Virus record (IMG/VR): IMGVR_UViG_3300037882_000695
Location: 1-55,756 of that record
Length of the DNA stretch: 55,756 nucleotides
DNA from: a virus
Taxonomy: Duplodnaviria; Caudoviricetes
Direction: 5' to 3' (one strand)
Below are positions 13,128-35,430 of this stretch, in pieces. The translations under genes and the position numbers were made by a program. The notes under the pieces are model-generated. The model was not told where the DNA came from and made no database searches. It was given only the letters and a program-made list of their open reading frames with translations. Position 1 is the stretch's first letter. Each line of letters opens with the position of its first letter.

Positions 13128-13370
13128 TCACTTCGCCGGAACTTCGAACAACTCCAACTGCACCTCATGGGACACGCTCGCAACAACTTCCGCGTGCCCG
13201 CATTGAATCACCCTCACGACAACCTCGCGTGTCTCGAATACCGCGCCACACAGGTCGCATTGACGCTCCCTGCCCATCCTGGATGCGTACGGCGCTGGCG
13301 TTGTTTCTGTGGTGAAAACGTGGCCGACAGTTTCGCATTCAGGACATCTAAACTTTGACGGTTGCGGCAT
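13128..13370 (-). CDS. Zinc-ribbon protein (NrdR-N/Ogr-like)
   Basis: CPEC...RERQCDLCGAVFETRE. Confidence 0.65.
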   Translation of the reverse strand: MPQPSKFRCPECETVGHVFTTETTPAPYASRMGRERQCDLCGAVFETREVVVRVIQCGHAEVVASVSHEVQLELFEVPAK

Positions 13371-13373
13371 TGT

Positions 13374-13613
13374 TCAGCCTCCGTGTCCGTGGTGACGCTT
13401 CCAGTGAAGCCCAATCACCTCGAATGCGTGTGGCCATACTTGACGCATCCACGATACCAACGTCGCGTCCGATGGTTCGGCGGTGAAAACGTCGCCGTCA
13501 GTGATCTGGTTGCAGTAGCGATTGTTGAGGCCGCATGGTTCGTGGAAGTGATGACTGCGAGGCTTGCCGCAATTCCCGCAGATCGGGTCGCTGTCGTGGT
13601 TTTGTGTAGTCAT
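13374..13613 (-). CDS. Hypothetical Cys/His-rich protein
   Basis: CGNCGKPRSHH; ATGA overlap. Confidence 0.55.
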   Translation of the reverse strand: MTTQNHDSDPICGNCGKPRSHHFHEPCGLNNRYCNQITDGDVFTAEPSDATLVSWMRQVWPHAFEVIGLHWKRHHGHGG

Positions 13614-16226: not shown

Positions 16227-16469
16227 TCAAAAAAGTTCCCGTTGCGTTTCCGTCACTGGTTCAATCCGCTTGCTCAACCCCGCCTCTTCGCGGCCCTCAT
16301 CAGTCAGCCACAACCAGCCGATTAACGCTGATGCAATCTCCGCATCTGGTTCGAACAACCACCCAACATCGATATATCCTTGAACCTTGTCGATCAACTT
16401 TCGGTTGCTCAAATAGCCCTTGATAGTTCCTGGACATAGGCCGTTTTCGAAGTCGCGGAGCTCGATCAT
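16227..16469 (-). CDS. Hypothetical protein
   Basis: ATGA-coupled; ends QRELF. Confidence 0.5.
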   Translation of the reverse strand: MIELRDFENGLCPGTIKGYLSNRKLIDKVQGYIDVGWLFEPDAEIASALIGWLWLTDEGREEAGLSKRIEPVTETQRELF

Positions 16470-17020
16470 GGATTCACTCGCCCGGTACGCTGCAACACTT
16501 CCATCTGACCGATGAAATTCAGGTCGCACTTACTCACGCTGTTGGTGACTGAATCTCGAATTCGTGCATGATCTGGACCGACCCAACCGGGCGGTTTTTG
16601 GAACTTGCCGTAATCGTTCAACGTCGCCACGCCATTCGGGAACTTGCTGTCGTTCGCGCGGTTTACCTCGATGATGTGTGGCCGGTCTGGCACGCCGTAA
16701 GCCGCGAGAGTTCCTGTGCAGACGTAGATCGTGTCCACGCAGCCGTCGATGACCTGCTCAACTGCGGTATCCCAATCGTTCTGGATGTAGTCTGGTAGCG
16801 ACGTAAATACTGGCTTACCTCCGACTATGTAAAACTGGAAGCCGAGTCCGCTGATTGCCTCGGTTGCTTCCTCAAGAATTAACCTTGCTCGCAGGAATCG
16901 AACTTCCTCGGAAGGCGCGGTGTACGGCACACTTGGCAACGCCAGATTCGGCCTGACCTGCGCCGTGCATGTCATCGTGTACAAGTTGCTGACCATCGCA
17001 TTCGAAAAAAGCATGTTCAT
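16466..17020 (-). CDS. MazG-like/PRA-PH family nucleotide pyrophosphatase
   Basis: LILEEATE...DGCVDTIYV...VNRANDSK...GKFQKPPGW. Confidence 0.8.
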   Translation of the reverse strand: MNMLFSNAMVSNLYTMTCTAQVRPNLALPSVPYTAPSEEVRFLRARLILEEATEAISGLGFQFYIVGGKPVFTSLPDYIQNDWDTAVEQVIDGCVDTIYVCTGTLAAYGVPDRPHIIEVNRANDSKFPNGVATLNDYGKFQKPPGWVGPDHARIRDSVTNSVSKCDLNFIGQMEVLQRTGRVNP

Positions 17021-17409
17021 TCGCTCGCCTCGCTGTTCTGTAGTAGTGCCAAACCCAAAAGATCCATCCGACCAAGGTTTCGTACTGGTTGCTGCTCCTG
17101 CCATTTACGCGGCGTCCCATCGAGATATGTTGCAGACGATGTTCCCACGACCTCGCACCAGTATTTTCGATCCGAGGACACTCGCACAGACACGCCAAAT
17201 TTCCCGACAGGCGTCACCGTGCATCGACGATTGCAAACCCCGCGACGGTTGTAACTGTCAAACAGGCGGAGCGAATTCAGATACTTTGTGGTCACAACAT
17301 CACCTTTGATGTCAGTGATTACAGATACCATGCGGCCCTCTGGAGCTTCGATGTCGTTAATGATGACGCAGTGACCGATTGCGATTTCACTGGCTGGCAA
17401 TGTGTTCAT
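17017..17409 (-). CDS. Hypothetical protein
   Basis: ATGA-coupled ORF. Confidence 0.5.
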   Translation of the reverse strand: MNTLPASEIAIGHCVIINDIEAPEGRMVSVITDIKGDVVTTKYLNSLRLFDSYNRRGVCNRRCTVTPVGKFGVSVRVSSDRKYWCEVVGTSSATYLDGTPRKWQEQQPVRNLGRMDLLGLALLQNSEASE

Positions 17410-17901: not shown

Positions 17902-18219
17902 TCATGGTTTCTCATCCAGAATCGCGACGATGCGACGCAGTTGGTCTGCTGTCAGCGTTGCCATCGATTTTGATCTTCGCTGAATAGTCTCCAGCATGTC
18001 CGCTCTGTCAGATGCTTCACGGATTTCTGCCGTCACCCGTGTCGCCTCGTACGGCCCCCATTTTTGCGGTCCGCGAATCCTCAAGTTCGGATCAAGCGTG
18101 TACAAATCACCGCACTTGATTCTGCCAGATGGTGTAATCGCTGTGACCTTGCAAATGTGCCAGTCGCGACTGTATCCACCACGGAATGCCAGTTCGTCGC
18201 CAACCTTGATTTCGCTCAT
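17902..18219 (-). CDS. Hypothetical SH3/KOW-like protein
   Basis: IKVGDEL...KVTAITPSGRIK. Confidence 0.6.
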   Translation of the reverse strand: MSEIKVGDELAFRGGYSRDWHICKVTAITPSGRIKCGDLYTLDPNLRIRGPQKWGPYEATRVTAEIREASDRADMLETIQRRSKSMATLTADQLRRIVAILDEKP

Positions 18220-18548
18220 CGTGCCGCCCCCGTTTCCGTCATCGCATGCCAGCACTCGTTGAAATGTTCCTGCAAGTCGTTGCGAATACCACGCTCGGTG
18301 TCTGATTCGAATCTTGCATGGCACTCACCGATGACGTAGCCGACATATTGACGTTCGCGTTTTTTCGGGAAGTGGTATCGATACTCGCCGAGAACGGTTT
18401 GGCATGTTTGAACGCCGAATTCATCGCTGTTGTCGAATTCCAATTCCTTCGGCCTCGGAACCGCAGCACGCAATTCAGCAAACATCGATTTCACTCGCTC
18501 GCTTCCGCTATCAACGAGTTGCTCTAGTTGGTCGATTAGGTCGTTCAT
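18216..18548 (-). CDS. Hypothetical protein
   Basis: ATGA-coupled ORF. Confidence 0.5.
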   Translation of the reverse strand: MNDLIDQLEQLVDSGSERVKSMFAELRAAVPRPKELEFDNSDEFGVQTCQTVLGEYRYHFPKKRERQYVGYVIGECHARFESDTERGIRNDLQEHFNECWHAMTETGAAR

Positions 18549-21248: not shown

Positions 21249-22598
21249 CTAAAACAATTCTCCGCGAGCGTCCGCCTCTCGTTTATCTGCGTTCCACTCT
21301 GGTCGTTGTCGCCGTTTTTCCATCAACTTCAGGTATCGCTCATACGATCCTGTTTTGTGCTGAGAGAACCCGATTGTCTTGCACCAATAATCGTTACGCA
21401 AAATGCACTTGCACATACGCCGCCACGATGGCGCTAGCTCTTTCGATTCCAGTGCTGGATCAACAAAATCCGGGATGCCTTTTTCGTACCCGCGATCCAT
21501 CCACCATTTGCGGTAAACGTCGAACTTCGCCTGGAAATGCTCCGACATCTTTTTCGGGAGAGTCTTGAGCAGCATTTCTGTGAATGATCTCCATGTATGA
21601 TTCGGCGGAAGCGATATGCTTTGGTATCCGGTCATGTTTCCGGTTTCTTGCACATACATTGCGCCGGAATTCGCACCTTGGACGCGAGCCACAACACGCC
21701 CCCACGTCATCGGCTCAATGAGCTGATACAGCCACAGGCCGCGACGCTGATCGTCTCCGTACGGCTCGCAGATTCGCATCTGGTGAATCGTAAGACCTGC
21801 CTTGTGCATCATGTCGTAAAGCTTGTTGTACGGCAGGTGCGGATTCTTGGCCTGATACACCCAATCGTCGGACGTGGCCCAATCGTAAATTGGATAAAAG
21901 TTGTAAACCTCATCGACGATCAGTGTCGTGTATTGCCAGTTGTTCAATCGCGTCTTGTTTTTGTAGGCAATTGTGCGGAAACGATTTAGGCTTTCGTCAC
22001 ATCGAATCCCTACGAAACACGCGCATCGCTTGCCCTGTGCGTACCATGCTCCGAATTCTGGTACGAAATCCTCGAACTCCATTCCATCGACGTACCAATC
22101 CCAAGTTTTCGTGTCGGTAATTGCCCACGATGGAGGCTGGCGAACCCACATTTTCTTTTTGTCGGGAGACCAGCATTCCCACTTTGGCTCAAACACAGAG
22201 ACTGCGTTTCTCAGTCCGATTGGCAGGCAAACCCAATACCATTCAGTGATGTCCAGGTACATTTCACGCATTCGCGTTGCGTGCTCTATAGTGAGCGTGT
22301 ATTGAGCCTCCAAATCGATCAACAACACGCCAAATTTGCGGCCACGCTTGCGAGCCTCCTGCGCCACAAGGTGTAGCATGACGGTTGAGTCTTTCCCCGC
22401 TGAAAAGCTCAGGTAAACCCGCTCGCACGAATCAAATGCGTTCGCAATTCTCTGTCTTGCCGCGTCTAAAACAGAAATCCCGATGGGACGCTTTTTGGCA
22501 GATAGTTCCCGCCCCTCAAATTCAAAATTGCCTTCCGCCGTGCGATGTCGGCTATCTTGTTCGCTTCCGCCTGCTGCAATATCGTTAGTTGATTCCAT
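21249..22598 (-). CDS. PAPS-reductase-like PP-loop protein with DUF3440 (IbrA/YbdN-like)
   Basis: SFSAGKDS PP-loop, VGIRCDESLNR, YPIYDW, PSWRRMCKCILRND; start uncertain. Confidence 0.88.
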   Translation of the reverse strand: MESTNDIAAGGSEQDSRHRTAEGNFEFEGRELSAKKRPIGISVLDAARQRIANAFDSCERVYLSFSAGKDSTVMLHLVAQEARKRGRKFGVLLIDLEAQYTLTIEHATRMREMYLDITEWYWVCLPIGLRNAVSVFEPKWECWSPDKKKMWVRQPPSWAITDTKTWDWYVDGMEFEDFVPEFGAWYAQGKRCACFVGIRCDESLNRFRTIAYKNKTRLNNWQYTTLIVDEVYNFYPIYDWATSDDWVYQAKNPHLPYNKLYDMMHKAGLTIHQMRICEPYGDDQRRGLWLYQLIEPMTWGRVVARVQGANSGAMYVQETGNMTGYQSISLPPNHTWRSFTEMLLKTLPKKMSEHFQAKFDVYRKWWMDRGYEKGIPDFVDPALESKELAPSWRRMCKCILRNDYWCKTIGFSQHKTGSYERYLKLMEKRRQRPEWNADKREADARGELF

Positions 22599-27236: not shown

Positions 27237-27662
27237 TTACGGTGCCGGTTTGCTGCATGGTCGCCAGTCTTCGCCGGGGCGCTTGATTTGCACGCCAGCG
27301 CTCATCAATCCGGCATAGTCATACAAGGATGATCCGAACTCCACTTTCTCGTTGGTGACCCCTGTAACCAAGAACCATCCACTCGGACGACATGCCCACC
27401 GGAACACGCTTCCCGGCGGCACATCTTCCGGCCCGAGCGGAACCAGTCGCGGGGTTGTGCTGCGGAGTCGATATTGCAATGAAGAGTCCATTACATATGC
27501 GCGTCCGTTCGCATATACGGACGGTTCCCAATCTTTGCCGTAGTTTGACCATTCCAAATTAAACCCATCAGGCACATTCCCGCCGTTCGCCTCGATTCGT
27601 TCGAGTGCGTCCAATGTCTGCCGCGTCAGTTCGATTCGTTCTTTCAGGTCCATGTTCGTCAA
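27237..27662 (-). CDS. Hypothetical protein
   Basis: Co-oriented ORF directly after csrA. Confidence 0.6.
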   Translation of the reverse strand: MTNMDLKERIELTRQTLDALERIEANGGNVPDGFNLEWSNYGKDWEPSVYANGRAYVMDSSLQYRLRSTTPRLVPLGPEDVPPGSVFRWACRPSGWFLVTGVTNEKVEFGSSLYDYAGLMSAGVQIKRPGEDWRPCSKPAP

Positions 27663-28027
27663 TCCTCAAACGTGTGGTTTTTCGGTTTGCTGTCGAGTCC
27701 GCGCGAGTAGTAATCCACCTTTTGCATTGGCGTCATGAATCGCGGCAATGGTTCGCCGTCGTCGTCAACAACGATTGCATCACGAATCGCGCTCACAAGT
27801 CCGTTCGGTGAGATATGACCGATGCTCGTTGTTGGCTTCTCGACAACAGGCAGCAAAGGCTTGATCTCGGTGCGGCGAATATTCACCTGTTTCTTATCTG
27901 CGTCGATTGCGATTCGTACCTGCGCCGGTTCCATGTGGACAATGAAAACTTCAATTCTTGTCACTTGGTCCGATGGCTGAATCTCACAAACGATCGATTC
28001 GCCTGGTTTTCGCGTTAATGCGAGCAT
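27659..28027 (-). CDS. csrA: CsrA/RsmA-like RNA-binding protein with C-terminal extension
   Basis: MLALTRKPGESI...QVRIAIDA...VNIRRTE matches the CsrA signature. Confidence 0.85.
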   Translation of the reverse strand: MLALTRKPGESIVCEIQPSDQVTRIEVFIVHMEPAQVRIAIDADKKQVNIRRTEIKPLLPVVEKPTTSIGHISPNGLVSAIRDAIVVDDDGEPLPRFMTPMQKVDYYSRGLDSKPKNHTFED

Positions 28028-28030
28028 TGT

Positions 28031-28044
28031 TCGAGTCCTTTCGA
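28031..28044 (-). promoter_or_regulatory. ANGGAN-loop hairpin over the csrA Shine-Dalgarno (putative autoregulatory site)
   Basis: Minus strand UCGA-AAGGAC-UCGA ending 3 nt before the ATG. Confidence 0.5.
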
Positions 28045-28096
28045 GTTAGTTAAACCCACTCAGCCCATACGACGTTGATTGGAATATCAAAAACGC

Positions 28097-28372
28097 TTAT
28101 TGCGTAGTTGTCGTCTCCACCGGCAACACACCGGCGAAGTCTGGGCTGAGTGGGGTTAGTTCGAGTTTGTATCCAAAGTGCTTTGCAATTCGTGCGACAT
28201 GCGGCATTGAGCATCCGTATTTATTCGACCGTTCTTCGCGCCCAAGAATCCGATTGAGCGTTTGATCTGCAATGTCTAAGTCGCGAGCTAGGTGCGCAAT
28301 TCTGCGGTTAGACGCGATGATCCAATCACCAAGTTGTTTCACGATTGCGTCAACATTTTCTTGAGGTGTCAT
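28097..28372 (-). CDS. XRE/Cro-like HTH protein
   Basis: IAHLARDLDIADQTLNRIL...VARIAKHFGYKLEL. Confidence 0.7.
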   Translation of the reverse strand: MTPQENVDAIVKQLGDWIIASNRRIAHLARDLDIADQTLNRILGREERSNKYGCSMPHVARIAKHFGYKLELTPLSPDFAGVLPVETTTTQ

Positions 28373-28554
28373 CAGTAATCCTTTGGCGTCAACATACCAA
28401 CGGTTTGGTCAATCCATCGCTCTGTCGTGCCGCGTTTCATTCGTGCATCGGCGCGGCAATCCCGGCACATCTTTTTCAGTTTTCGGCTATCCATGCTCTC
28501 GAAGTGGTCGATTGGTTTCTGTCGCTTGCAGCAGGTACAACCTCGAACATCCAT
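28372..28554 (-). CDS. Small zinc-finger protein
   Basis: CTCC...KPIDHF...CRDC. Confidence 0.6.
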   Translation of the reverse strand: MDVRGCTCCKRQKPIDHFESMDSRKLKKMCRDCRADARMKRGTTERWIDQTVGMLTPKDY

Positions 28555-28635
28555 GATTCACGTCCCTGAGCTATTCAAACCACTCCGAGTAGATCCACGC
28601 GGCAACACCGCACGCAGCGACGATTGAAAACAGCG

Positions 28636-28758
28636 TCATCGCGACTCCCGGCAAATCAGCACCAGCCACGCCCAACATCCCGCGATGCCACCGAAATATG
28701 CTGACCACAACAGCCAGCCTGCGATTGTGTCGATTAGCAAACGTGCTTCATGTGTCAT
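28636..28758 (-). CDS. Small membrane peptide
   Basis: 40 aa, hydrophobic, AGGAG upstream. Confidence 0.4.
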   Translation of the reverse strand: MTHEARLLIDTIAGWLLWSAYFGGIAGCWAWLVLICRESR

Positions 28759-28762
28759 GCTT

Positions 28763-30313
28763 CTACTCCTGCCAATTTCGCCAGATGACGCCGTGTTCGA
28801 CGAGCACAGTTTCTCCGTCTTCGCAGTGCCAATCGTCCGCACGCAGTAGATATGCCCCTTTGCTCGTTCTCTGGGCCAGAGCTGCACCGCTACGCATCGT
28901 CCAATAAACGATGTCGGCACATGCCGCACACATGCCGGTTGGGCCACATTCAACGCGACAATCGTCATTCGTAACCGCCGCGATTCCACTCCAACCGGTC
29001 GCGGATGCTGCTCCCCTCGAACCAGTCGCGGACGCTGCTCCCCTCTCACCGGTCGCGGACGCTGCTCCACTCTCACCGGTCGCGGATGCTGCTCCCCTCG
29101 AACCGGTCGCGGATGCTGCACCACTCGAACCAGTCGCGGATGCTGCTCCCCTCGAACCAGTCGCGGACGCTGCTCCACTCGAACCGGTCGCGGACGCTGC
29201 TCCACTCGAACCAGTCGCGGACGCTGCTCCACTCTCACCTGTCGCGGACGCTGCTCCACTCTCACCGGTCGCGGACGCTGCTCCACTCGAACCAGTCGCG
29301 GATGCTGCTCCCCTCAAACCAGTCGCGGACGCTGCTCCCCTCTCACCGGTCGCGGATGCTGCTCCCCTCGAACCGGTCGCGGATGCTGCACCACTTGAAC
29401 CAGTCGCGGACGCTGCTCCCCTCGAACCGGTCGCGGATGCTGCACCACTCTCACCAGTCGCGGACGCTGCTCCACTCCAACCGGTCGCGGACGCTGCTCC
29501 ACTCTCACCGGTCGCGGACGCTGCTCCACTCTCACCGGTCGCGAATGCTGCTCCACTCTCACCGGTCGCGGATGCTGCACCACTTGATGCGTGCTGAGTC
29601 CATGCGATTTGCCCCTTGAGAATCATCAGGTGACATTCGAGATATGTACCACTCGCTACGATGGTTGCTCGTTTTGTTTTTGCTTTTCCGCCAAGGTCGA
29701 TGACTTCAGCAGGGTCAGCAGCAAACACCAGCCAATGGGCGGAGTAATCTGGAGTTTTCCCATCACCAACCGCCAATCCCCACGGCCAACCATGAAGACC
29801 TCCGCCGCATTCTAGTGCCGGATTCCAATCAGGTGCCTCGACAGATTCGCCGACAGTGAGCGGCCACTTGAATCCGCCGTAGCTGGTGCCGTCTTTATTG
29901 ACGCACTTCAACAACAGGACTTTGTCGCCGTCGTGAGTCCATTCGTGCGGTTTTTTAATTTGCTGTTCACTCATCGGCGCGGACCTTCGGCTATAGGTGT
30001 GTGTTGGTTGCTTCAAAAGAGCGGGCGATTCCGTTCGCCCTGTCGTGCCGGTTCCTGGTTCGTCCGTGATTCGATGTTTCATCAGGTCGTCGAGTCGCTG
30101 GGGCCACTGCACTGAATACGATGTTGGGTTCTCAGTCAGCATCGATGTGCCAAGCTCAATTCGCGACAACTGACACGTCACAGGCCCAATCGCTGTGGCA
30201 ATGTCGACGAAAAACACGGCATTCCCCTCGATTGGATACAACTCTCCGTCAACGTAAAGTGCTTCGTTGCCGTCGATGTCAATAACACCAACGGCTTTTC
30301 GTGGGTCAATCAT
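28763..30313 (-). CDS. Phage repeat protein (GAASATG nonapeptide solenoid; DUF7666-like N-domain); possible internal start at 29974
   Basis: GFKWP...APDW.P..ECGGGLHG domain followed by 22 repeats; ATGA-coupled start at 30313. Confidence 0.75.
   Translation of the reverse strand: MIDPRKAVGVIDIDGNEALYVDGELYPIEGNAVFFVDIATAIGPVTCQLSRIELGTSMLTENPTSYSVQWPQRLDDLMKHRITDEPGTGTTGRTESPALLKQPTHTYSRRSAPMSEQQIKKPHEWTHDGDKVLLLKCVNKDGTSYGGFKWPLTVGESVEAPDWNPALECGGGLHGWPWGLAVGDGKTPDYSAHWLVFAADPAEVIDLGGKAKTKRATIVASGTYLECHLMILKGQIAWTQHASSGAASATGESGAAFATGESGAASATGESGAASATGWSGAASATGESGAASATGSRGAASATGSSGAASATGSRGAASATGERGAASATGLRGAASATGSSGAASATGESGAASATGESGAASATGSSGAASATGSSGAASATGSRGAASATGSSGAASATGSRGAASATGESGAASATGERGAASATGSRGAASATGWSGIAAVTNDDCRVECGPTGMCAACADIVYWTMRSGAALAQRTSKGAYLLRADDWHCEDGETVLVEHGVIWRNWQE
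28988..29581 (-). repeat. Tandem array of 22 x 27-bp coding repeats
   Basis: Each unit encodes GAASATG[E/S/W/L][S/R]; one unit has F in place of S. Confidence 0.95.
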
Positions 30314-30627
30314 TTCGAAACCTTTCGATAAACCGTCGCACTGCTTCCCGTCACCGTGCATGTGCGTGCGGGTAATTCTTCGATCAGACCGTCACGAACA
30401 AGCTCGTGAAACCGTTTTCGATATGACTCCGCCAACTTGCCGTAGTAGTCGCTGCACAACGTCGCCACTTCCATCGCAGTCAGTTGTTTGTCCGCCAGCA
30501 TGAACATGCACCGTTGCTGCAACATGCCGAGCTTGACCCGCGTTGAATCGGCTGACTCGTGCGAGGTCGCTTTGTCCGTGCGGCGTGATAGGGTTGGCTG
30601 TGGCGTGAAAAGGTCTAATTGAACCAT
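30310..30627 (-). CDS. Winged-helix DNA-binding protein
   Basis: RRTDKATSHESA...LTAMEV...RKRFHELVRDGLIE. Confidence 0.7.
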   Translation of the reverse strand: MVQLDLFTPQPTLSRRTDKATSHESADSTRVKLGMLQQRCMFMLADKQLTAMEVATLCSDYYGKLAESYRKRFHELVRDGLIEELPARTCTVTGSSATVYRKVSK

Positions 30628-30628
30628 G

Positions 30629-30901
30629 CTATTCCTCCAGGCTTTGGGCGAACTCTTGAACTGACCGCTTGCAGAACGCCCGTACGTTGCTTGGAAACCT
30701 GCCCTTGCGGATCTTCCGAGCGACCGCTAACCGGTCGAGTGTCCTGCCTGAGACAGAAAGGAACTTCGCGGCCTCATCGACACTGAGAAGTCCATCAACC
30801 CCGAACTTGTAACCCCATGCGTCGTCCGCAGCGGATCCGAAGATTTTGGGTTTTGTTGCCATAGTTCCTGCCATGTGTGACCCTGTGTTTGAGTTGGTCA
30901 T
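30629..30901 (-). CDS. Excisionase-like HTH_17 protein
   Basis: LLSVDEAAKFLSVSGRTLDRL; next to attP. Confidence 0.75.
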   Translation of the reverse strand: MTNSNTGSHMAGTMATKPKIFGSAADDAWGYKFGVDGLLSVDEAAKFLSVSGRTLDRLAVARKIRKGRFPSNVRAFCKRSVQEFAQSLEE

Positions 30902-31063
30902 CGTTGTCGTGGCGGGATTCTACTGACGGTTTTTTGGGTGATCCGAGTTTCCGAAACTTACCCGACAACTACCGTAGATTTCCCAAAAGTTCCCCGATGG
31001 AATCGACGATTTTCAGGGTTGACAGGGGTTCTTTGAAAACTGGTCTGTGTCGTGTTGGCGAAC

Positions 31064-31328
31064 TCGGGAAGGGTTCGGGAAGGGTTGTGCCAGCAGGTGT
31101 AAACGCGGGTGACTACGGCGCGTCGTGGGTTGTCTGGTGTTGTCAACCGGATAGTCTAACTACACCTAGACTTGCGGCGTTTTTATGGCATTGTTGCCAA
31201 CCGTGCATAAGTCCTGTCGTGGTGGTCTTTTGCTTGACTGGGGGTCAAGAGGTCGCAGGTTCAAATCCTGTCAGCCCGATTAGAGTTACGACGATTTGGA
31301 GTAGTGGTCAGGTGTAAACCTGGTGACT
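31064..31328. promoter_or_regulatory. attP arms: integrase arm-type and Xis-like repeats
   Basis: CAGGTGTAAAC-N2/3-GGTGACT at 31094-31114 and 31309-31328 flank the core; tandem TCGGGAAGGGT x2 at 31064-31085. Confidence 0.6.
31231..31280 (+). other. attP core = 3' half of tRNA-Pro(GGG)
   Basis: Anticodon arm CTTGA-CTGGGGG-TCAAG, T-arm GCAGG-TTCAAAT-CCTGT, acceptor 3' strand CAGCCCGA; 5' half absent; about 50 nt from the integrase stop. Confidence 0.88.
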
Positions 31329-31332
31329 GTGA

Positions 31333-32445
31333 TTACCCGAGAAGCCGCGACATGATCGATGTTGCGGCCACCTGATGACACTCCAACACATGAGAGTAGA
31401 TATCCATCGTGGTGGAAACCTTGGCGTGTCCAAGCTGTTTCGACACGACTGTTGGTGGAATTCCCGCACCGAGAGCCAGCGTCGCGTAGGTGTGGCGAGT
31501 GTGATGGAATCCACGATGTTCAATGGCGAGTTGAACCAAAAGAGGATCCCACGTCTTCACGCGAAATGTGCCGCGACTCTGGACGCCCTTGCCGCGTTCT
31601 CCCGGATAAACCAGTTTCGAACTGGCGTTTCCTTCGGCCATCAGGATCCCGCGATGTTGCCGTAATGCGTCAATCGTGCTGGCCGTCAGATCGATGGTTC
31701 TGATCGAGGCTTTAGTCTTGGGTTTCGCCAGTGTGCTTCTGCCCGAAATTTCAACGGCTTGCTGATCGATTCGTATCTGCGACGCCTTCCAGTCAATCCG
31801 ATCCCATTCCAGACCAAATATTTCTCCCTGCCGCATTCCCGCTGCGATTCCTAACTGGATGGCAATGTGATGACGCTGACCGACTGTCTCACTCAGAAGC
31901 AATTTCGATTCAGCCAGCGTGAACGGGAATATCGGTTCCGTTTCGTGCGTCGGCTTCGCGGCGTGCTCGAAAGGATCCGTAGAAATCATTCTCAGCCTGA
32001 ACGCGTGACCGACTGCTGCGCGGAGAACGGTGAAAGCATTCTGGCGAGTTCTGGATCCAACCTCATCGCGAGCCATACCCGCCGTCAGGTGTTGAATGTG
32101 AATCGGTTCAAATGTCTTGAGAAGAATGGATCCCACTCGCGGGATGATGTGCTTTTCGCACGCAATCCGATAGCTTTCCTTGGTGTTGTCGGACATTTCC
32201 GAAACAACATCCCGAAGCCATGTTTGCAAAAACGCTGCGATGGTAAATCGCTGTGGAGAGCGTATGAGGGCGACTTCCGATTCAGCCCTCAGCGTTTGAA
32301 GAATTGCGACCGCATCGGCGTGCTTCCATGCCGTGCGGGTTATTCGCTTCAGCTCAGATCCGATCTTGACCGTCACTGAAATTCGGTAGCGACCTGATTT
32401 CTCCTTTGAAATCGATCCCTCACCGTTCGCCCGTTTCTTCGCCAT
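31333..32445 (-). CDS. int: Tyrosine integrase
   Basis: RANGEGSI N-terminus; catalytic R (GMRQGE), K (PKT), HxxR (HHTRH), LGH, Y (DIYSH). Confidence 0.95.
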   Translation of the reverse strand: MAKKRANGEGSISKEKSGRYRISVTVKIGSELKRITRTAWKHADAVAILQTLRAESEVALIRSPQRFTIAAFLQTWLRDVVSEMSDNTKESYRIACEKHIIPRVGSILLKTFEPIHIQHLTAGMARDEVGSRTRQNAFTVLRAAVGHAFRLRMISTDPFEHAAKPTHETEPIFPFTLAESKLLLSETVGQRHHIAIQLGIAAGMRQGEIFGLEWDRIDWKASQIRIDQQAVEISGRSTLAKPKTKASIRTIDLTASTIDALRQHRGILMAEGNASSKLVYPGERGKGVQSRGTFRVKTWDPLLVQLAIEHRGFHHTRHTYATLALGAGIPPTVVSKQLGHAKVSTTMDIYSHVLECHQVAATSIMSRLLG

Positions 32446-32623
32446 GCCCCATATCCTTCGCAACTGTAGCCATTGCGACAACGGAAAGATTCCGGGCGGC
32501 TTCGTAAAGTTCCGGGAACAGGTCGCGGCGTTCCTTGATCTGCTCTGCCAGGATGTTCGCCGCTCGCATCTGACGTGTCAGCCAATCCCTATGGCTTTCT
32601 CTTGGCTGGCCGTTTGTCTCCAT
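32420..32623 (-). CDS. Small hypothetical protein upstream of int
   Basis: GAGGGG RBS; overlaps both neighbours. Confidence 0.45.
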   Translation of the reverse strand: METNGQPRESHRDWLTRQMRAANILAEQIKERRDLFPELYEAARNLSVVAMATVAKDMGHGEETGER

Positions 32624-32834
32624 TGTCTACCCCTCTCGCAATATCCTGCCACCACCACGCGGCGTCTACAACCATGAGATTGCCTGCCCTCAGCGTGCGA
32701 ATCCCGAACCCTTTGACGTATTCCTTGACCGTTTCTTCGGTCATTCCGAGAACTTCAGCCCAATCTGCAACGAGAAACTTGCCGTTTTCCGGCAAAAACC
32801 GTTGACGAGGATCTGATCGGAGCGTACCATCCAT
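32589..32834 (-). CDS. Xis/MerR-like HTH protein
   Basis: VADWAEVLGMTEETVKEYVK..GI. Confidence 0.6.
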   Translation of the reverse strand: MDGTLRSDPRQRFLPENGKFLVADWAEVLGMTEETVKEYVKGFGIRTLRAGNLMVVDAAWWWQDIARGVDNGDKRPAKRKP

Positions 32835-32888
32835 TGCGTCACCTGCCCATTCTCTCAAAAATTGTGGGTGAACGAATTGAAATCACCG

Positions 32889-32918
32889 AAAGCTCACGAT
32901 TCGCAGTCGTGAGCTTTT
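32889..32918. terminator. Intrinsic terminator-like hairpin, possibly bidirectional
   Basis: AAAGCTCACGA/TCGTGAGCTTT 11-bp stem with short T runs on both strands. Confidence 0.55.
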
Positions 32919-33302
32919 GTGGCTCTTTGAGGTCAAACCGCGATCACTTCATTTGATTGCCTCCCCTCAATTTTGAATTCTGCGTTAATCCGTCGATCTC
33001 TCTTGCAAGTCCGCGCAGGACTGTGCGATATTCTTGACGCCGGGTAGCGTCGTGCAGGTCGCTTGTTGATTAGTAGTCTCCGAGCTTGATCTGCTGCTTT
33101 GCAAGGGTCCAATCTTGCGTAGCCGCTGCCCGGTTTGTTTTTTGTAGCCGAAACCACCACAGTTCGGCAACTCCATTCGGCGAATAATTTGCCAACCGGA
33201 TTGCAATTGTGCAAGTGTCTTTTGATGGATGGAATGTCTATCTTCAGCGTTTTTGTCTGACGTGATCCACTCAAGTCGCCCGTTTCGCGTTGCCGATACG
33301 CT

Positions 33303-33358
33303 GCAAGGAATATTGCCACTTTTCGGAAAACACCCCTAAAACACGCAAGGATTATTGC
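33303..33358 (+). promoter_or_regulatory. Twin 14-nt GCAAGGAWTATTGC elements; the second covers the SD of the PAS-LuxR gene
   Basis: 33303-33316 and 33345-33358 differ at one base; each is GCAA-N6-TTGC with GGA in the loop. Confidence 0.6.
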
Positions 33359-33865
33359 ATGAATCGGCAGTATGTGGCCGCAACCGGCAATATACATGGC
33401 ATGTTCACTGCGGTGAATCGACCGTCCAGAGCGGCAATTTCGGCAGGAATCACCCGTGAAAATATTTTGGGAAAAACTATCTGGGACTTCGGTGACGACG
33501 TTCTCGAGCAGGAGATTCGGGACAATTTCGCGCGGTGCCTGATGGACGGTTCCGAGGTGCACTACAAGACCAGCAGCCACATTCAGGGCGTTACCGAGCA
33601 CTGGGACTGTCGGATTATGCCAGCGCCGGAAACTGCCGTGCTGATCGTCGCCGAGGAGTTTTTTGACGACACTCCCGACATGACCGCCGAGGATGTCCAG
33701 ATCATTTCCTATCTCGACCAGGATCTCACTGTCCACCAGATCGGGCTGGCGATGCACATTTGCGACACGACCGCCGCAAGCAAGCTGTACCGCCTGCGCA
33801 CAAAATGCGGCGTGCAGACGAATCACGGCCTGCTGTCGTGGGCCGCTAGACGTGGTGTGATCTGA
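33359..33865 (+). CDS. PAS-domain + LuxR-type HTH transcription factor (VqmA-like architecture)
   Basis: PAS-like GMFTAVN...GITRENILGKTIWDF; LuxR-like MTAEDVQIISYL..DLTVHQIG...KLYRLRTKCGVQTNHGLLSWAARRGVI; AAGGA RBS. Confidence 0.8.
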   Translation: MNRQYVAATGNIHGMFTAVNRPSRAAISAGITRENILGKTIWDFGDDVLEQEIRDNFARCLMDGSEVHYKTSSHIQGVTEHWDCRIMPAPETAVLIVAEEFFDDTPDMTAEDVQIISYLDQDLTVHQIGLAMHICDTTAASKLYRLRTKCGVQTNHGLLSWAARRGVI

Positions 33866-34045
33866 CATTGCGCCCGGCTCATTCCGGCAGTGACCACGAT
33901 CAATGGCAGGCTGGATTCCTCTACAGCCCGGCGAGTCACCTGTTGATTGTCGCGAATCCATGGCGACGGACGAGACAATACCGCCGTCACGAGTCGCGGT
34001 CAACGGAATGTTTGCCGAAAATGTTTTGTGTTAGCGCGAATGCGT

Positions 34046-34075
34046 TTGAAATATTCCGGTGAGCGGCGGTATGAT
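34046..34075 (+). promoter_or_regulatory. Sigma70-type promoter
   Basis: TTGAAA-18 nt-TATGAT; predicted +1 near 34082-34083. Confidence 0.65.
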
Positions 34076-34082
34076 TTCGCTT

Positions 34083-34530
34083 GTCCCGACCAAGACGCAT
34101 TGCTAAATTTTGGATCTCCGCTCGTCATGAGCATTTGAACCTCGCAGTATTCTCCTGGTCGGGACGCTGCGGGGTTCTTCTTTTGGATAACACGCGGTTC
34201 GGTGGCTGACACGGTTGGAGCAATCCCCACCAGTCACCGACCGCGTTTCTAAAGTAGAACCCCGCGATTGGATGCTCCGTGTTGGACGGATTCAGCGGGT
34301 TCGACTCCCGCACCATTCAATCCTGTGGGTGTGGGGCTGTGCGGGCCTCGAGGTGAGCAGGTTTCAAAGTCACCGAGAATCGCACCGAGCGCCGGGACGT
34401 TCCTGTCTGGATCTCGAGATAATCCCTCAGATCAGCCTTCATGGTTAAACTCATGAGGGGGTCTGGGTGTGTGCCTCGAGCACCGAACTTTCCTGTCTGT
34501 TTGCAATACATTGCCAAAGGCAATGTGAGC
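34083..34530 (+). ncRNA. Putative large structured non-coding RNA with a tRNA-like domain
   Basis: Successive long stems, G-U pairs and a GCAA tetraloop that favour the + strand, TTCGACT T-loop; no credible ORF; 3' end uncertain. Confidence 0.65.
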
Positions 34531-34537
34531 AGTCCTT

Positions 34538-34804
34538 GTGTACTGGATTCGCCGCCAGAAAGCACCAGAAATCAGATACCACGTTCTCGACATCAACCCG
34601 ATGAAGGAAGTGCTGCGGACTGAAGGAAATATCGATGCGAATGGACTTAAGAAAGCGTTGCATATCTGCCGTGGTCACTTCGCGCATTACGAGAATGGAC
34701 TGTTCGGACGTGGTGAAGCATGCACCGTTTGGAAGCCGTCGCACGTTCGCGGTTCCGTTGAGCATGGCATCGTTGACAAGGATTACCGGATTAAGATGGG
34801 ATAG
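34538..34804 (+). pseudogene. Probable C-terminal remnant of a phage protein
   Basis: HICRGHF..Y..GLFG...W.PSHVRG...G.V.KDY looks like the end of a longer protein; weak start. Confidence 0.45.
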
Positions 34805-34900
34805 TCGGAACCAATCGCCTGAGTCGATGTCCAGCCCCTTTCTGAGTCGCGCACAAGATTTTTTGTACAGTACAACGGTTTTTGTACTCGAAAGGACGCC

Positions 34901-35152
34901 ATGAAACTTCAATGGAACACGCCAATGCCGAACGCCAGCCTTTTGAAAGCTGCTGGCACATCGCTCAACTCGCATCCATGGCGCGGTTTTTCCGCTGAGT
35001 CTGTGCGGATTCGGTTGTCTGCGATCAAGCATGGCAACGAATGGACGATCACTGCAGAAACGATTGACACTACCGAGCCAATTCCAGGATTTCGCGCATA
35101 CGACAGAATCGACCTGAATGACGTTGTTCCATCATCCGCCGTCGAGGTGTAG
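34901..35152 (+). CDS. Hypothetical protein
   Basis: AAGGA RBS; followed by a GC-rich hairpin near 35156-35189. Confidence 0.55.
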   Translation: MKLQWNTPMPNASLLKAAGTSLNSHPWRGFSAESVRIRLSAIKHGNEWTITAETIDTTEPIPGFRAYDRIDLNDVVPSSAVEV

Positions 35153-35202
35153 AAACGACAGCACCCCGACGATTTGCCGGGGTGGTCGTATGCACTGGCA
35201 GT

Positions 35203-35430
35203 CTACGATGCTCGTTGTGGTCTCGGCGGTATCTTCACCATCGACCGCAGTTCTACCGCCCGTTGAAACAGATTGCGAATCCGAATGCCGTCAGTTGGAC
35301 ATGCCGACAGCGCCCACGCTTTGACCGCTTGTGAATCGCGGTTCGAGTATCGCCGCTTGTCGGACAACTGAGCCGTCCAGATGCCGCCCGGACATTCGAC
35401 GAAGCTGATTGTTGCGGTGGTCATTGTCAT
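35203..35430 (-). CDS. Hypothetical protein
   Basis: GGAG RBS. Confidence 0.45.
   Translation of the reverse strand: MTMTTATISFVECPGGIWTAQLSDKRRYSNRDSQAVKAWALSACPTDGIRIRNLFQRAVELRSMVKIPPRPQRAS

What the first reader, a model, noticed from the sequence alone, without database searches (positions are those of the whole stretch)
27659..34530. Candidate repressor-less, RNA-level lysis/lysogeny circuit: PAS-LuxR sensor + structured RNA + phage CsrA
Seen: the phage has int and attP but no divergent CI-like gene. The control region instead holds a plus-strand PAS-LuxR gene, divergent from the xis/int operon and followed by a long structured RNA with its own promoter. The early operon encodes CsrA, and GGA-loop hairpins cover the SD of csrA and of the PAS-LuxR gene. 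Known: VqmA (PAS+LuxR) activates the sRNA VqmR in Vibrio and drives the lytic switch of phage VP882; CsrA binds GGA loops at SD sequences and is titrated by CsrB/RsmZ-type RNAs. Inference: a small-molecule-sensing activator, an RNA effector and a translational repressor may form one switch.
Basis: partly seen in the sequence, partly recalled or inferred. Interest (0 to 1): 0.85.

Follow-up and report, generated by a model that had tools for sequence, protein, structure and literature searches.

The report
Phage sensor regulator beside CsrA gene
A temperate phage carries a small signal-sensing DNA-binding regulator next to its integrase and an RNA-binding CsrA gene, but the folded non-coding stretch beside them looks like a separate mosaic insert, not the third part of one switch.

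Summary
Most of the described features are real. They are int, a tRNA-like attP, a divergent 168-aa PAS + LuxR-HTH gene (33359-33865), a CsrA gene in the leftward operon, GGA motifs at both Shine-Dalgarno sites, and a 672-nt non-coding, strongly folding stretch (33866-34537).

The three-part switch is not supported.
- The folded stretch has no counterpart in the three other phages that carry the PAS-LuxR gene.
- It is not GGA-rich.
- Its core (34046-34540) recurs at about 98% identity in another metagenome with unrelated flanks.
- It ends where a 5'-truncated remnant of a ~300-aa gene begins.

CsrA is in all 7 related virus records, and at least 269 IMG/VR stretches encode relatives. PAS-LuxR is in 4 of those 7 records and in 1 of 80 CsrA loci.

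GGA-in-loop hairpins at start sites occur at chance frequency. The one non-chance RNA-level feature is a twin 14-mer, GCAAGGAWTATTGC, in the PAS-LuxR leader, and only this phage has it.

No CI/S24 repressor was found in 50 ORFs, but several weak HTH candidates remain, so "repressor-less" is unproven.

Best reading: an accessory, VqmA-like sensory regulator tied to the integration module, possibly repressed by CsrA in this phage.

The parts
27659..28027 (-). Phage csrA, 122 aa: a CsrA domain at residues 1-55 plus a 65-aa C-terminal extension.
   Evidence: Pfam CsrA 40.3 bits, cut-off 27. phrog_9500 'CsrA-like regulator'. A profile of six phage CsrAs hits solved CsrA 1T3O at 2.8e-22. The protein alone has no PDB hit at E<=0.01.
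28031..28044 (-). Hairpin UCGA-AAGGAC-UCGA that puts the csrA SD GGA in its loop, 3 nt before the ATG.
   Evidence: Sequence read; scan. The same criterion is met at chance frequency among phage csrA leaders: 10 of 37 against 7.5 expected.
28097..28372 (-). 91-aa ORF just upstream of csrA; weak Cro/C1-type HTH candidate.
   Evidence: Pfam HTH_26 E 0.0093, 16.6 bits, below the 22 cut-off. Best PDB match is a PbsX-family regulator at E 0.3. Coding LLR 0.119 per codon.
30629..30901 (-). 90-aa HTH_17/excisionase-like protein, first gene of the leftward operon next to attP.
   Evidence: Pfam HTH_17 24.8 bits, cut-off 27. NCBIfam excisionase domain E 1.5e-4. By eye, similar first genes appear in the ORF listings of L003, L002, L010 and L011.
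31210..31279 (+). tRNA-like attP core.
   Evidence: Rfam tRNA 25.3 bits, E 0.044, with mismatches in the acceptor stem. No ARAGORN tRNA. The same piece starts L003 and lies between phage genes in L007.
31333..32445 (-). Tyrosine integrase.
   Evidence: Pfam Phage_integrase 65.8 bits and Phage_int_SAM_3. Relatives at 40-48% identity in four IMG/VR records.
32589..32858 (-). ORF89, a small gene just upstream of int; xis-like by position.
   Evidence: No family hit. Homologue (E 4e-9) in the same place upstream of int in G004, which lacks PAS-LuxR. Coding LLR 0.18 per codon.
33303..33358 (+). Twin 14-mers GCAAGGAATATTGC (33303-33316) and GCAAGGATTATTGC (33345-33358). The second covers the SD and abuts the ATG.
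   Evidence: 4 matches at <=2 mismatches against 0.64 expected, with 0 of 100 shuffles reaching 4; the two exact copies are these. The leader 33290-33375 folds at -24.1 kcal/mol, z -3.2, with both GGA in an internal loop.
33359..33865 (+). PAS + LuxR-type HTH transcription factor, 168 aa.
   Evidence: See (details in the observation check).
33866..34045 (.). Non-coding spacer between the PAS-LuxR stop and the mosaic module.
   Evidence: No coding frame. Not covered by the X1 contig.
34046..34540 (.). Structured non-coding mosaic module. It holds a promoter-like site (34046-34075), hairpin H1 (34083-34165), hairpin H2 (34169-34265), a tRNA-like three-way element (34262-34330) and a 7-bp hairpin (34508-34524).
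   Evidence: A 581-nt contig of run X1 matches 34046-34179 and 34260-34540 with 2 and 4 other letters. It replaces 34180-34259 by 12 letters and has unlike flanks on both sides. H2 folds at -56.2 kcal/mol, z -8.3; H1 z -3.6; the tRNA-like fold takes 73% of its ensemble. No Rfam family.
34538..34804 (+). ORF88, a 5'-truncated remnant: the C-terminal ~85 aa of a ~300-aa family.
   Evidence: phrog_20769 positions 232-315 of 318, E 5.4e-9. 273 longer homologues, the best 95% identical. tblastn homology starts at 34544, at a median query position of 219 of 306. ESM features: 'AcrVA2-like' 0.93, with recognition below the tool's bar.
34901..35152 (+). ORF83, a plus-strand ORF of unknown function.
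   Evidence: Coding LLR 0.103 per codon, against -0.03 for the overlapping minus-strand 193-aa frame. No family.

Best explanation
The locus is the integration/lysogeny end of a temperate phage. Its order is attP, int and a small xis-like ORF89, then a divergently transcribed, stand-alone PAS + LuxR-HTH transcription factor.

The factor is an accessory sensory regulator that travels with the integration module. It most likely binds a small ligand through its PAS domain. It most likely acts on the 500-bp divergent promoter region that it shares with ORF89-int, and so on excision or the lysis-lysogeny decision. Both of these steps are inferred.

The phage's CsrA is a trait of the whole phage group. 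In this phage only, twin CAAGGAW motifs in the PAS-LuxR leader make that mRNA a plausible target of translational repression by CsrA. This step is also inferred.

The 672-nt folded stretch downstream is not part of this circuit. It is a mosaic junction that holds a self-contained structured module (34046-34540) and abuts a truncated gene remnant.
For: Domain assignment:
- PAS_4 is above its cut-off.
- 44 proteins in 1.84 billion match at E<=1e-3, the query's own sequence among them, and most listed are about 160-190 aa. Of the 25 aligned, 17 hit PAS_4 and 14 hit GerE.
- The family profile hits GerE at 1.1e-9, and also RhlR, EL222 and VqmA chains.
- The AF2 model has pLDDT 94.6. Its top Foldseek hits are VqmA 6UGL at 4.2e-8, EL222 at 1.3e-6 and phage VqmA 7DWM at 3.3e-6.

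Link to int:
- The gene lies 441-914 nt from int in 4 of 4 phages that have it: the window, L002, L003/L007 and L009.
- It keeps this position although the flanking early and late modules are arranged differently.

Accessory nature:
- It is present in 4 of 7 related records. It is absent from G005 and G006, and G004 gives only a weak match over its HTH part.

CsrA:
- All 7 of 7 records have a CsrA above the Pfam cut-off.
- The Arg at position 52 of the window's CsrA is invariant in six phage CsrAs. From memory, this is the key RNA-binding Arg.

Leader:
- Two exact copies of the 14-mer lie 42 nt apart.
- Seven of eight letters match the CAAGGAUG CsrA motif quoted in PMC13418256 (passages seen).

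Structured stretch as a separate module:
Against: - No target site of the PAS-LuxR protein was found. No 9- to 12-mer is shared by more than three of the five upstream regions, and no shared palindrome appeared in them or in the three early regions.
- The GCAA-N6-TTGC sites occur nowhere else in regulatory DNA.
- The twin GGA sites are missing from the PAS-LuxR leaders of L002 and L003. L009 has only GCAAGGAA at its SD, and L008 has a GGA without a hairpin.
- GGA-in-loop hairpins at start sites are at chance: 10 of 37 phage csrA leaders against 7.5 expected, P 0.20, and 4 of 35 GGA-bearing starts in the window against 5.5 expected.
- The csrA leader as a whole does not fold better than shuffles, z -0.41.
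- All related records are fragments (35-74% complete by CheckV), so absences are not certain.
- No expression data exist.
Confidence: 0.5

Rival explanations
1. The phage has no protein repressor. PAS-LuxR activates the downstream structured RNA, the RNA titrates or partners CsrA, and the three parts form one RNA-level lysis/lysogeny switch.
For: - No CI/S24-type repressor in the 50 ORFs scanned with Pfam.
- A strongly folding non-coding stretch lies right after the gene.
- A promoter-like site sits at the left edge of the conserved module.
- GGA motifs lie at both SD sites.
Against: - The stretch has no homologue in any fetched locus.
- There is no room for it in L002, where the gap is 186 nt, or in L003, where a convergent gene overlaps.
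- The corresponding DNA of L009 folds at only z -2.4 and -0.2.
- It has 12 GGA in 672 nt against 7.1 +/- 3.4 for the strand, 0 AGGA, and 2 of 12 GGA unpaired in the best fold.
- It recurs elsewhere with unrelated flanks.
- CsrA is common in phages without PAS-LuxR.
- Several HTH candidates remain untested: ORF91, the HTH_17 protein, phrog_1123, ORF89, and ORF133 with a weak phrog_876 'transcriptional repressor' hit at E 0.0096.
Confidence: 0.06
2. PAS-LuxR is itself the immunity repressor, a CI analogue with a sensor domain in place of a RecA-cleavable domain. It is made from its own promoter in the lysogen and silences the leftward operon in trans.
For: - It is the only regulator gene transcribed against the bulk of the genome.
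- It stands alone with a 440-640-nt upstream region in 4 of 4 phages.
- No other repressor was recognised.
Against: - Related phages with the same int and early-operon layout lack it (G004, G005, G006), so the core switch of the group should lie elsewhere.
- No shared operator was found between its own upstream region and the early region 30902-31209.
- From memory, most studied LuxR-type and VqmA proteins act as activators.
Confidence: 0.17
3. The twin 14-mers are DNA operators, inverted repeats GCAA-N6-TTGC bound by a dimeric HTH protein such as PAS-LuxR itself. They are not RNA sites for CsrA.
For: - Each copy is a 4+4 inverted repeat.
- The copies are 42 bp apart, about four helical turns.
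- The motif is over-represented: 5 matches against 1.53 expected, with 3 of 100 shuffles reaching 5.
Against: - The second copy abuts the start codon and holds the SD. That suits control of translation better than promoter occupancy.
- The other three GCAA-N6-TTGC sites lie inside genes.
- The central letters AAGGAW are kept in both copies although a 4+4 palindrome would not require them.
Confidence: 0.2
4. The 34046-34540 module is an expressed stand-alone RNA gene, an 'RNA moron' of roughly 450 nt with a tRNA-like element. Its function is unrelated to PAS-LuxR or CsrA.
For: - Its boundaries in a second sample are discrete. The left one coincides with the first base of a TTGAAA-18-TATGAT site, and the right one follows a 7-bp hairpin.
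- The one change inside an H1 arm (34093, A in the window, G in X1) sits at the single mismatch of the 13-nt arms, which are 92% complementary. By eye, G there makes the arms fully complementary.
- The tip of H2 is replaced while its base is kept.
- Folding is extreme, H2 at z -8.3.
- The element contains a canonical T-arm, GGGTTCGACTCCC.
Against: - Only two copies are known, so no covariation test is possible.
- No Rfam family matches at E<=5.
- The two strands fold equally well.
- The promoter scan is not above chance.
- There is no canonical terminator.
- The T-arm may be a relic of an old att site.
Confidence: 0.3
5. The whole of 33866-34537 is a functionless recombination scar: decayed remains of the N-terminal two-thirds of the ORF88 gene family, plus palindromic or att-site debris.
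For: - ORF88 keeps only the last ~85 of ~300 residues, and homology starts abruptly at 34544.
- A full-length gene of about 318 codons ending at 34804 would start near 33850, just after the PAS-LuxR stop (arithmetic).
- The N-terminal parts of the family are highly variable.
Against: - Ten stop-free plus-strand frames of 33850-34560 give no phrog_20769 match at E<=10.
- The 120 full-length relatives listed give no significant tblastn match upstream of 34505.
- About 98% identity to a second sample over 415 nt, with structure-preserving differences, argues against free decay.
- Such extreme folding is not expected of a decayed gene.
Confidence: 0.3

Closest known systems
VqmA of Vibrio cholerae and VqmA-Phage of vibriophage VP882 (PDB 6UGL, 6IDE, 6KJU, 7DWM)
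   Same: - An N-terminal PAS domain followed by a C-terminal LuxR-type HTH.
- These are the best Foldseek matches of the model: 4.2e-8 for 6UGL and 3.3e-6 for the phage protein.
- A phage-encoded member controls the lysis decision (abstracts listed; PMC10432266 passages).
   Different: - 13-16% identity, TM 0.46-0.50, with rmsd of 9-14 A.
- 168 aa, against 215-228-residue solved chains.
- The ligand is unknown.
- It lies next to an integrase in an integrating phage, not in a linear plasmid phage.
- No qtip-like partner and no conserved vqmR-like RNA were found.
EL222, a LOV-HTH light-activated transcription factor (PDB 8A5R, 3P7N)
   Same: A single PAS-type sensor domain fused directly to a LuxR-type HTH.
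   Different: 10-12% identity. From memory, the flavin-binding Cys motif of LOV domains is not evident in the family consensus; this was not tested.
Phage TF-smORF induction modules (Silpe et al. 2023, PMC10432266; passages seen)
   Same: A phage transcription factor, in some cases a LuxR-type receptor, with a divergently transcribed small gene. The module is accessory and acts beside the core switch.
   Different: - The divergent small gene here (ORF89) has a homologue upstream of int in a phage without PAS-LuxR. It therefore looks like part of the int operon, not a dedicated antirepressor.
- No cI target was identified.
CsrA/RsmA family (for example B. subtilis CsrA, PDB 1T3O), and phage CsrA annotated as a moron in Bcep22-like phages (PMC9144972; passages seen)
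   Same: - Pfam CsrA above its cut-off.
- The profile of the phage CsrAs hits solved CsrAs at about 1e-21 to 3e-22.
- Phage CsrA genes are already annotated (phrog_9500).
   Different: - The window's copy has a 7-residue insertion and a 65-aa C-terminal extension. It is 25-33% identical to its phage relatives.
- It sits in the early operon, not among structural genes.
- No function of any phage CsrA is reported in the passages seen.
CsrB/RsmZ-type sponge RNAs
   Same: Non-coding and structured.
   Different: - 12 GGA in 672 nt, 0 AGGA, and 4 GGA in hairpin loops.
- No Rfam match.
- From memory, CsrB carries about 20 GGA in about 370 nt.
phrog_20769 / 'AcrVA2-like' proteins of about 300 aa (relates to ORF88 only)
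   Same: The C-terminal ~85 residues are up to 95% identical.
   Different: The N-terminal two-thirds are missing. The AcrVA2 label rests on language-model features only, with recognition below the tool's bar.

Membership tests
CsrA (PF02599) | Match to the family model above the curated cut-off. | tested here: met
   40.3 bits against 27; 40.8 bits in the genome search.
CsrA (PF02599) | Conserved N-terminal MLxLxR strand and the RNA-binding Arg near the C-terminal end of the domain (residue roles recalled from memory). | tested here: met
   M1, L2, L4, R6 and R52 are invariant in six phage CsrAs. The profile aligns end to end with 1T3O.
CsrA (PF02599) | Binds GGA-containing RNA and represses translation. 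| not testable with these tools
   Needs a gel shift or a reporter assay.
LuxR/GerE-type HTH (PF00196) | C-terminal four-helix HTH that matches the family model. | tested here: met
   The window protein alone gives no GerE hit at E<=0.1. 14 of 25 family members do. The family profile hits GerE 1FSE at 1.1e-9. The model has four helices at residues 110-164.
PAS domain | PAS fold. | tested here: met
   PAS_4 at 23.9-24.3 bits against 23.1. 17 of 25 members hit it. Foldseek matches to ARNT/HIF and LOV PAS domains, rmsd 3-4 A over about 100 columns.
VqmA quorum-sensing receptors | Sequence homology beyond the shared domains, and the DPO-binding pocket. | tested here: inconclusive
   Same architecture and best structural match, but 13-16% identity and a shorter protein. 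Pocket residues were not examined. I do not file it as a VqmA.
CsrB/RsmZ-type CsrA-titrating RNA | Many GGA motifs displayed in loops or single strands. | tested here: not met
   12 GGA in 672 nt (strand mean 7.1, sd 3.4), 0 AGGA, and 2 of 12 unpaired in the best fold.
Lambda-type CI repressor (HTH_3 with or without Peptidase_S24) | A match anywhere in the window. | tested here: not met
   None in the 50 ORFs scanned with Pfam. The only near match is a sub-threshold HTH_26 hit on ORF91. About 30 further ORFs, mostly large, were not scanned.
TF-smORF induction module | A transcription factor that activates a divergently transcribed small antirepressor gene. | tested here: inconclusive
   The geometry is present: ORF89 is divergent, 500 nt away. 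However, ORF89 has a homologue beside int in a phage without the TF. Activation cannot be tested with these tools.
tRNA (as the attP core) | A full tRNA gene. | tested here: not met
   25.3 bits, below the gathering score of 29, with acceptor mismatches. ARAGORN finds none. This fits a partial tRNA copy in an attP.
phrog_20769 / AcrVA2-like (ORF88) | Full-length protein of about 300 aa. | tested here: not met
   Only profile positions 232-315 of 318 are present. Homology starts at 34544.

The most novel reading that the evidence does not exclude
In this phage the early-operon CsrA acts as a post-transcriptional timer. It shuts off translation of the integrase-linked PAS-LuxR sensor through the twin CAAGGAW sites, so the lysis-lysogeny or excision decision is set by a protein-RNA interaction layered on a ligand-sensing transcription factor. 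Beside it sits a new kind of roughly 450-nt structured phage RNA with a tRNA-like element, which moves between phages as a promoter-plus-RNA cassette.
Probability: 0.15. Interest if true: 0.75.

Novelty: new variant of a known kind. Interest (0 to 1): 0.4.

Why it matters
Phage-encoded sensory transcription factors that couple lysis-lysogeny to chemical signals are so far known mainly from Vibrio and Aeromonas plasmid-like phages.

This locus shows a small, uncharacterised PAS-LuxR family. It has 44 members in 1.84 billion representative proteins. It sits beside the integrase in integrating phages from environmental samples.

These phages all carry CsrA, a translational regulator whose role in phages is untested. 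If CsrA controls the sensor's mRNA, that would be a first concrete task for a phage CsrA.

The negative result also matters. The striking structured stretch is a separate mosaic piece, and short GGA hairpins at start sites are not evidence on their own.

Tried and rejected
Searches that led nowhere:
- Single-protein locus searches with PAS-LuxR and with the window's CsrA found no viral relatives. The word-based protein search found only the query itself.
- Rfam at the gathering threshold on the whole window, and at E<=5 on 30800-35300, gave only the attP tRNA-like match and two chance-level hits, rnk leader and DicF.
- blastn of 33866-34537 against 50,697 phage records found no match.
- tblastn of PAS-LuxR against the same records found no match.
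- Exact patterns from the module found 0 matches in viral contigs and 0 in genome contigs.
- ARAGORN at 80% thresholds gave 68 mostly spurious calls and none in 33866-34537.
- A family search in genome contigs found no relatives, so no host prophage context is available.
- The ORF193 minus-strand frame (34451-35032) was rejected as a gene, with a coding LLR of -0.03 per codon. It is not similar to the lipoprotein that is convergent with PAS-LuxR in L003.
- ORF89 is not similar to the genes upstream of int in L003 or L002.
- The search for shared operators among PAS-LuxR upstream regions and early regions found nothing convincing. My k-mer counts there were doubled by a counting slip, so a printed 4 means 2 regions.
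- The look-up of sequencing runs listed no RNA holder. It listed one DNA run with a small share, which was laid.
- A tRNA-remnant/second att-site origin for 34262-34330 was considered and remains open.
- Supplementary tables of the papers were not opened.

Full report
What the window is. The window is a whole IMG/VR virus record of 55,756 bases, classed as linear and estimated 72% complete. Almost all likely genes lie on the minus strand. From right to left the order is:
- structural genes and a DNA methyltransferase (phrog_757);
- a short plus-strand cluster (33359-35152);
- ORF89 and int on the minus strand;
- a tRNA-like attP;
- a long leftward operon. It opens with an HTH_17/excisionase-like gene and carries csrA, a recombination pair and replication genes.

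That this is an "early operon" is inferred from gene order. No promoter was identified for it.

Checking the observation. The integrase is clear (Phage_integrase 65.8 bits). The attP is a degenerate tRNA copy: Rfam tRNA 25.3 bits against a gathering score of 29, and no ARAGORN call. The same piece lies between phage genes in the related locus L007. So this is the unintegrated form.

The plus-strand gene most likely starts at ATG 33359, giving 168 aa. Alone it reaches only PAS_4, at 24 bits against 23.1, with weak sigma/LuxR-like hits on its C-terminus. An exhaustive HMMER search found 44 proteins with E<=1e-3 in 1.84 billion, the query's own sequence among them, and most listed are about 160-190 aa. 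Of the 25 aligned, 17 hit PAS_4 and 14 hit GerE. The family profile hits GerE, RhlR, NarL, EL222 and VqmA chains in PDB, the best at 1.1e-9. With that alignment AlphaFold gives pLDDT 94.6. The best solved matches are V. cholerae VqmA (4.2e-8), EL222 and the VP882 phage VqmA (3.3e-6), all at 10-16% identity. So "PAS-LuxR, VqmA-like in architecture" is confirmed. Membership of the VqmA family is not shown.

CsrA is confirmed (40.3 bits against 27). A profile of six phage CsrAs matches solved CsrAs at about 1e-21 to 3e-22. The window's copy is the most divergent of the six: it has a 7-residue insertion and a 65-aa tail.

The repressor question. I scanned 50 ORFs with Pfam and 20 with PHROGs. No HTH_3/S24-type repressor appeared. 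Candidates do exist:
- ORF91, directly upstream of csrA, has a sub-threshold Cro/C1-type HTH hit (16.6 bits, cut-off 22) and a PbsX-family PDB hit at E 0.3.
- The HTH_17 protein opens the operon.
- ORF133 has weak antitoxin and repressor PHROG hits.

About 30 mostly large ORFs were not scanned. "Repressor-less" is therefore unproven in either direction.

Relatives and co-occurrence. The PAS-LuxR family was found in two further IMG/VR records (L002 in G001, L003 in G002) and in two metagenome contigs (L007, which is the same phage as L003, and the short L008). Integrase relatives brought in four more records, G003-G006. G005 and G006 look like one phage.
- CsrA is present above the Pfam cut-off in 7 of 7 records.
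- PAS-LuxR is present in 4 of 7. G003 matches at 9e-61. G004 gives only a 5e-4 match of a sigma-like ORF to the HTH part. G005 and G006 give none.
- In all four phages that have it, the gene lies 441-914 nt from int, even though the neighbouring modules are arranged differently.
- Two peptide patterns found 269 CsrA-encoding stretches in IMG/VR. Of the 80 loci fetched, each with up to 10 kb on either side, only one holds a PAS-LuxR member, and that one is G001 again.

So CsrA is a common phage gene and a trait of this whole group. PAS-LuxR is an accessory gene tied to the integration module. All these records are fragments, so absences carry that caveat.

ORF89 has a homologue (E 4e-9) directly upstream of int in G004, which lacks PAS-LuxR. 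This fits an int-operon gene (xis-like) better than a partner specific to the sensor.

The GGA hairpins. With my criterion (a stem of at least 4 pairs and GGA in a loop of 4-8), 4 of the 35 window gene starts that carry a GGA at -22 to -3 qualify, against 5.5 expected from shuffles. The four are csrA, the next gene, PAS-LuxR and one structural gene. A narrower scan gave 3 of 72. Among 37 distinct phage csrA leaders, 10 qualify against 7.5 expected, P 0.20. My pattern located only 41 of the 80 csrA starts. Among the close relatives the hairpin is present in the window, L002, L003 and L011/L012, and absent in L010. In G003 I see only a 3-pair version by eye. The csrA leader as a whole is not unusually stable, z -0.41. 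The hairpin observation is therefore real but, taken alone, at chance level.

One feature is beyond chance. The PAS-LuxR leader holds two exact copies of GCAAGGAWTATTGC 42 nt apart, and the second abuts the ATG. The scan gave 4 matches at <=2 mismatches against 0.64 expected, with 0 of 100 shuffles reaching 4. The 86-nt leader folds at z -3.2 with both GGA in one internal loop. Each copy matches 7 of 8 letters of the CAAGGAUG CsrA motif quoted in PMC13418256. The leaders of L002 and L003 have nothing similar. L009 has GCAAGGAA at its SD. The twin sites could equally be DNA operators, since GCAA-N6-TTGC occurs 5 times against 1.5 expected. That remains a live rival.

The structured stretch. No frame in 33866-34537 has a positive coding signal. 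The plus-strand ORF88 and ORF83 downstream do, and the overlapping minus-strand 193-aa frame does not. The stretch folds at z -5.8 on both strands. Window 34101-34300 ranks second of 547, and hairpin H2 alone reaches -56 kcal/mol, z -8.3.

It is not a CsrA sponge. It has 12 GGA (strand mean 7.1, sd 3.4), no AGGA, and 2 of 12 GGA unpaired in the best fold.

It has no homologue, as DNA or translated, in any fetched locus. L002 and L003 have convergent genes where it would lie, and the corresponding DNA of L009 folds at z -2.4 and -0.2.

ORF88 proved to be the last ~85 residues of a ~300-aa family:
- It matches phrog_20769 positions 232-315 of 318.
- It has 273 longer homologues, up to 95% identical.
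- Homology starts abruptly at 34544.

A 581-nt contig from a freshwater metagenome run matches 34046-34179 and 34260-34540 with 6 differences in all. It replaces the tip of H2 by 12 letters, and its flanks on both sides are unlike the window. The left edge falls on the first base of the only strong promoter-like site. The right edge falls at the truncation point of ORF88. Inside the module lies a small tRNA-like three-way fold with a canonical T-arm.

My reading is that 34046-34540 is a self-contained mosaic module. It may be an RNA gene with its own promoter, or palindromic/att debris. It was recombined in at the expense of the ORF88 gene and is not functionally tied to PAS-LuxR. With two copies, no covariation test is possible.

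Mechanism proposed. The shown parts are the domain architecture, the linkage to int, the distribution of CsrA, the twin motifs, and the modular nature of the structured stretch.

The inferred parts are these:
- PAS-LuxR senses a small molecule and regulates the divergent ORF89-int promoter region, or another lysis-lysogeny promoter.
- CsrA, made from the leftward operon, binds the twin sites and lowers PAS-LuxR translation in this phage.

The known frame is the accessory TF modules of temperate phages described by Silpe et al. (PMC10432266, passages seen) and VqmA-Phage of VP882. Phage csrA genes are already annotated, for example in Bcep22-like phages, without a tested role (PMC9144972, passages seen).

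Novelty and verdict. This is a new variant of a known kind. It is a short PAS-LuxR family attached to integration modules of environmental phages, one member already in UniProt as "PAS fold-4" from an uncultured phage (42% identity), together with a lineage-wide phage CsrA. I searched the literature and saw no paper on a CsrA-controlled phage sensor. That covers only those four searches of the held library. The headline claim, a repressor-less three-part RNA-level switch, is not supported. Interest is moderate.

Noticed in passing
window 17902-18324 (-): A 140-aa ORF with a Phage_ProQ_C_like hit (26.1 bits, cut-off 27, E 1.5e-5). It is a second candidate RNA-binding regulator in the same phage.
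   Followed up: no
window 28763-30361 (-): A 532-aa early-operon protein with a DUF7666-like N-terminal part and about 30 collagen-like GAASATG-type repeats. G004 appears to have a repeat-less counterpart at L010:2896-3489 (by eye).
   Followed up: no
window 34538-34804 (+): ORF88 is the C-terminal third of a widespread ~300-aa phage/prophage family whose N-terminal parts are very variable. Language-model features call it AcrVA2-like. One homologue is labelled Singulisphaera, a possible hint to the host phylum.
   Followed up: partly
window 34262-34330 (+): A 69-nt element folds, in 73% of its ensemble, into an acceptor-like stem, a hairpin and a canonical T-arm, GCGGG-UUCGACU-CCCGC. ARAGORN and Rfam do not call it. 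It may be a relic of a second att site.
   Followed up: partly
window 34180-34259: In a freshwater metagenome contig the tip of the 103-nt hairpin H2 is replaced by 12 letters, while the base of the stem and the rest of the module stay about 98% identical.
   Followed up: partly
window 13347-13589; L002 10666-10884: About 75% nucleotide identity between small genes of the window and the genes convergent with PAS-LuxR in L002. This points to mosaic exchange between these phages.
   Followed up: no
window 21249-22598 (-), 16466-17104 (-): A PAPS-reductase plus DUF3440 protein and a MazG-like pyrophosphohydrolase. Bcep22-like phages also pair csrA with a PAPS reductase (PMC9144972).
   Followed up: no
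L010 2190-2858 (G004): Between the HTH_17 gene and csrA, the relative without PAS-LuxR carries a 222-aa sigma-factor-like ORF. It gives the weak 5e-4 match to the HTH part of the PAS-LuxR profile.
   Followed up: no
window 28001-28200: Folded as the plus strand, this 200-nt window (the end of ORF91 plus the csrA leader) ranks first of 547 for excess stability (dE -17.1, z -5.3). The minus-strand csrA leader 28015-28100 alone is not unusual (z -0.41). This is unexplained.
   Followed up: partly
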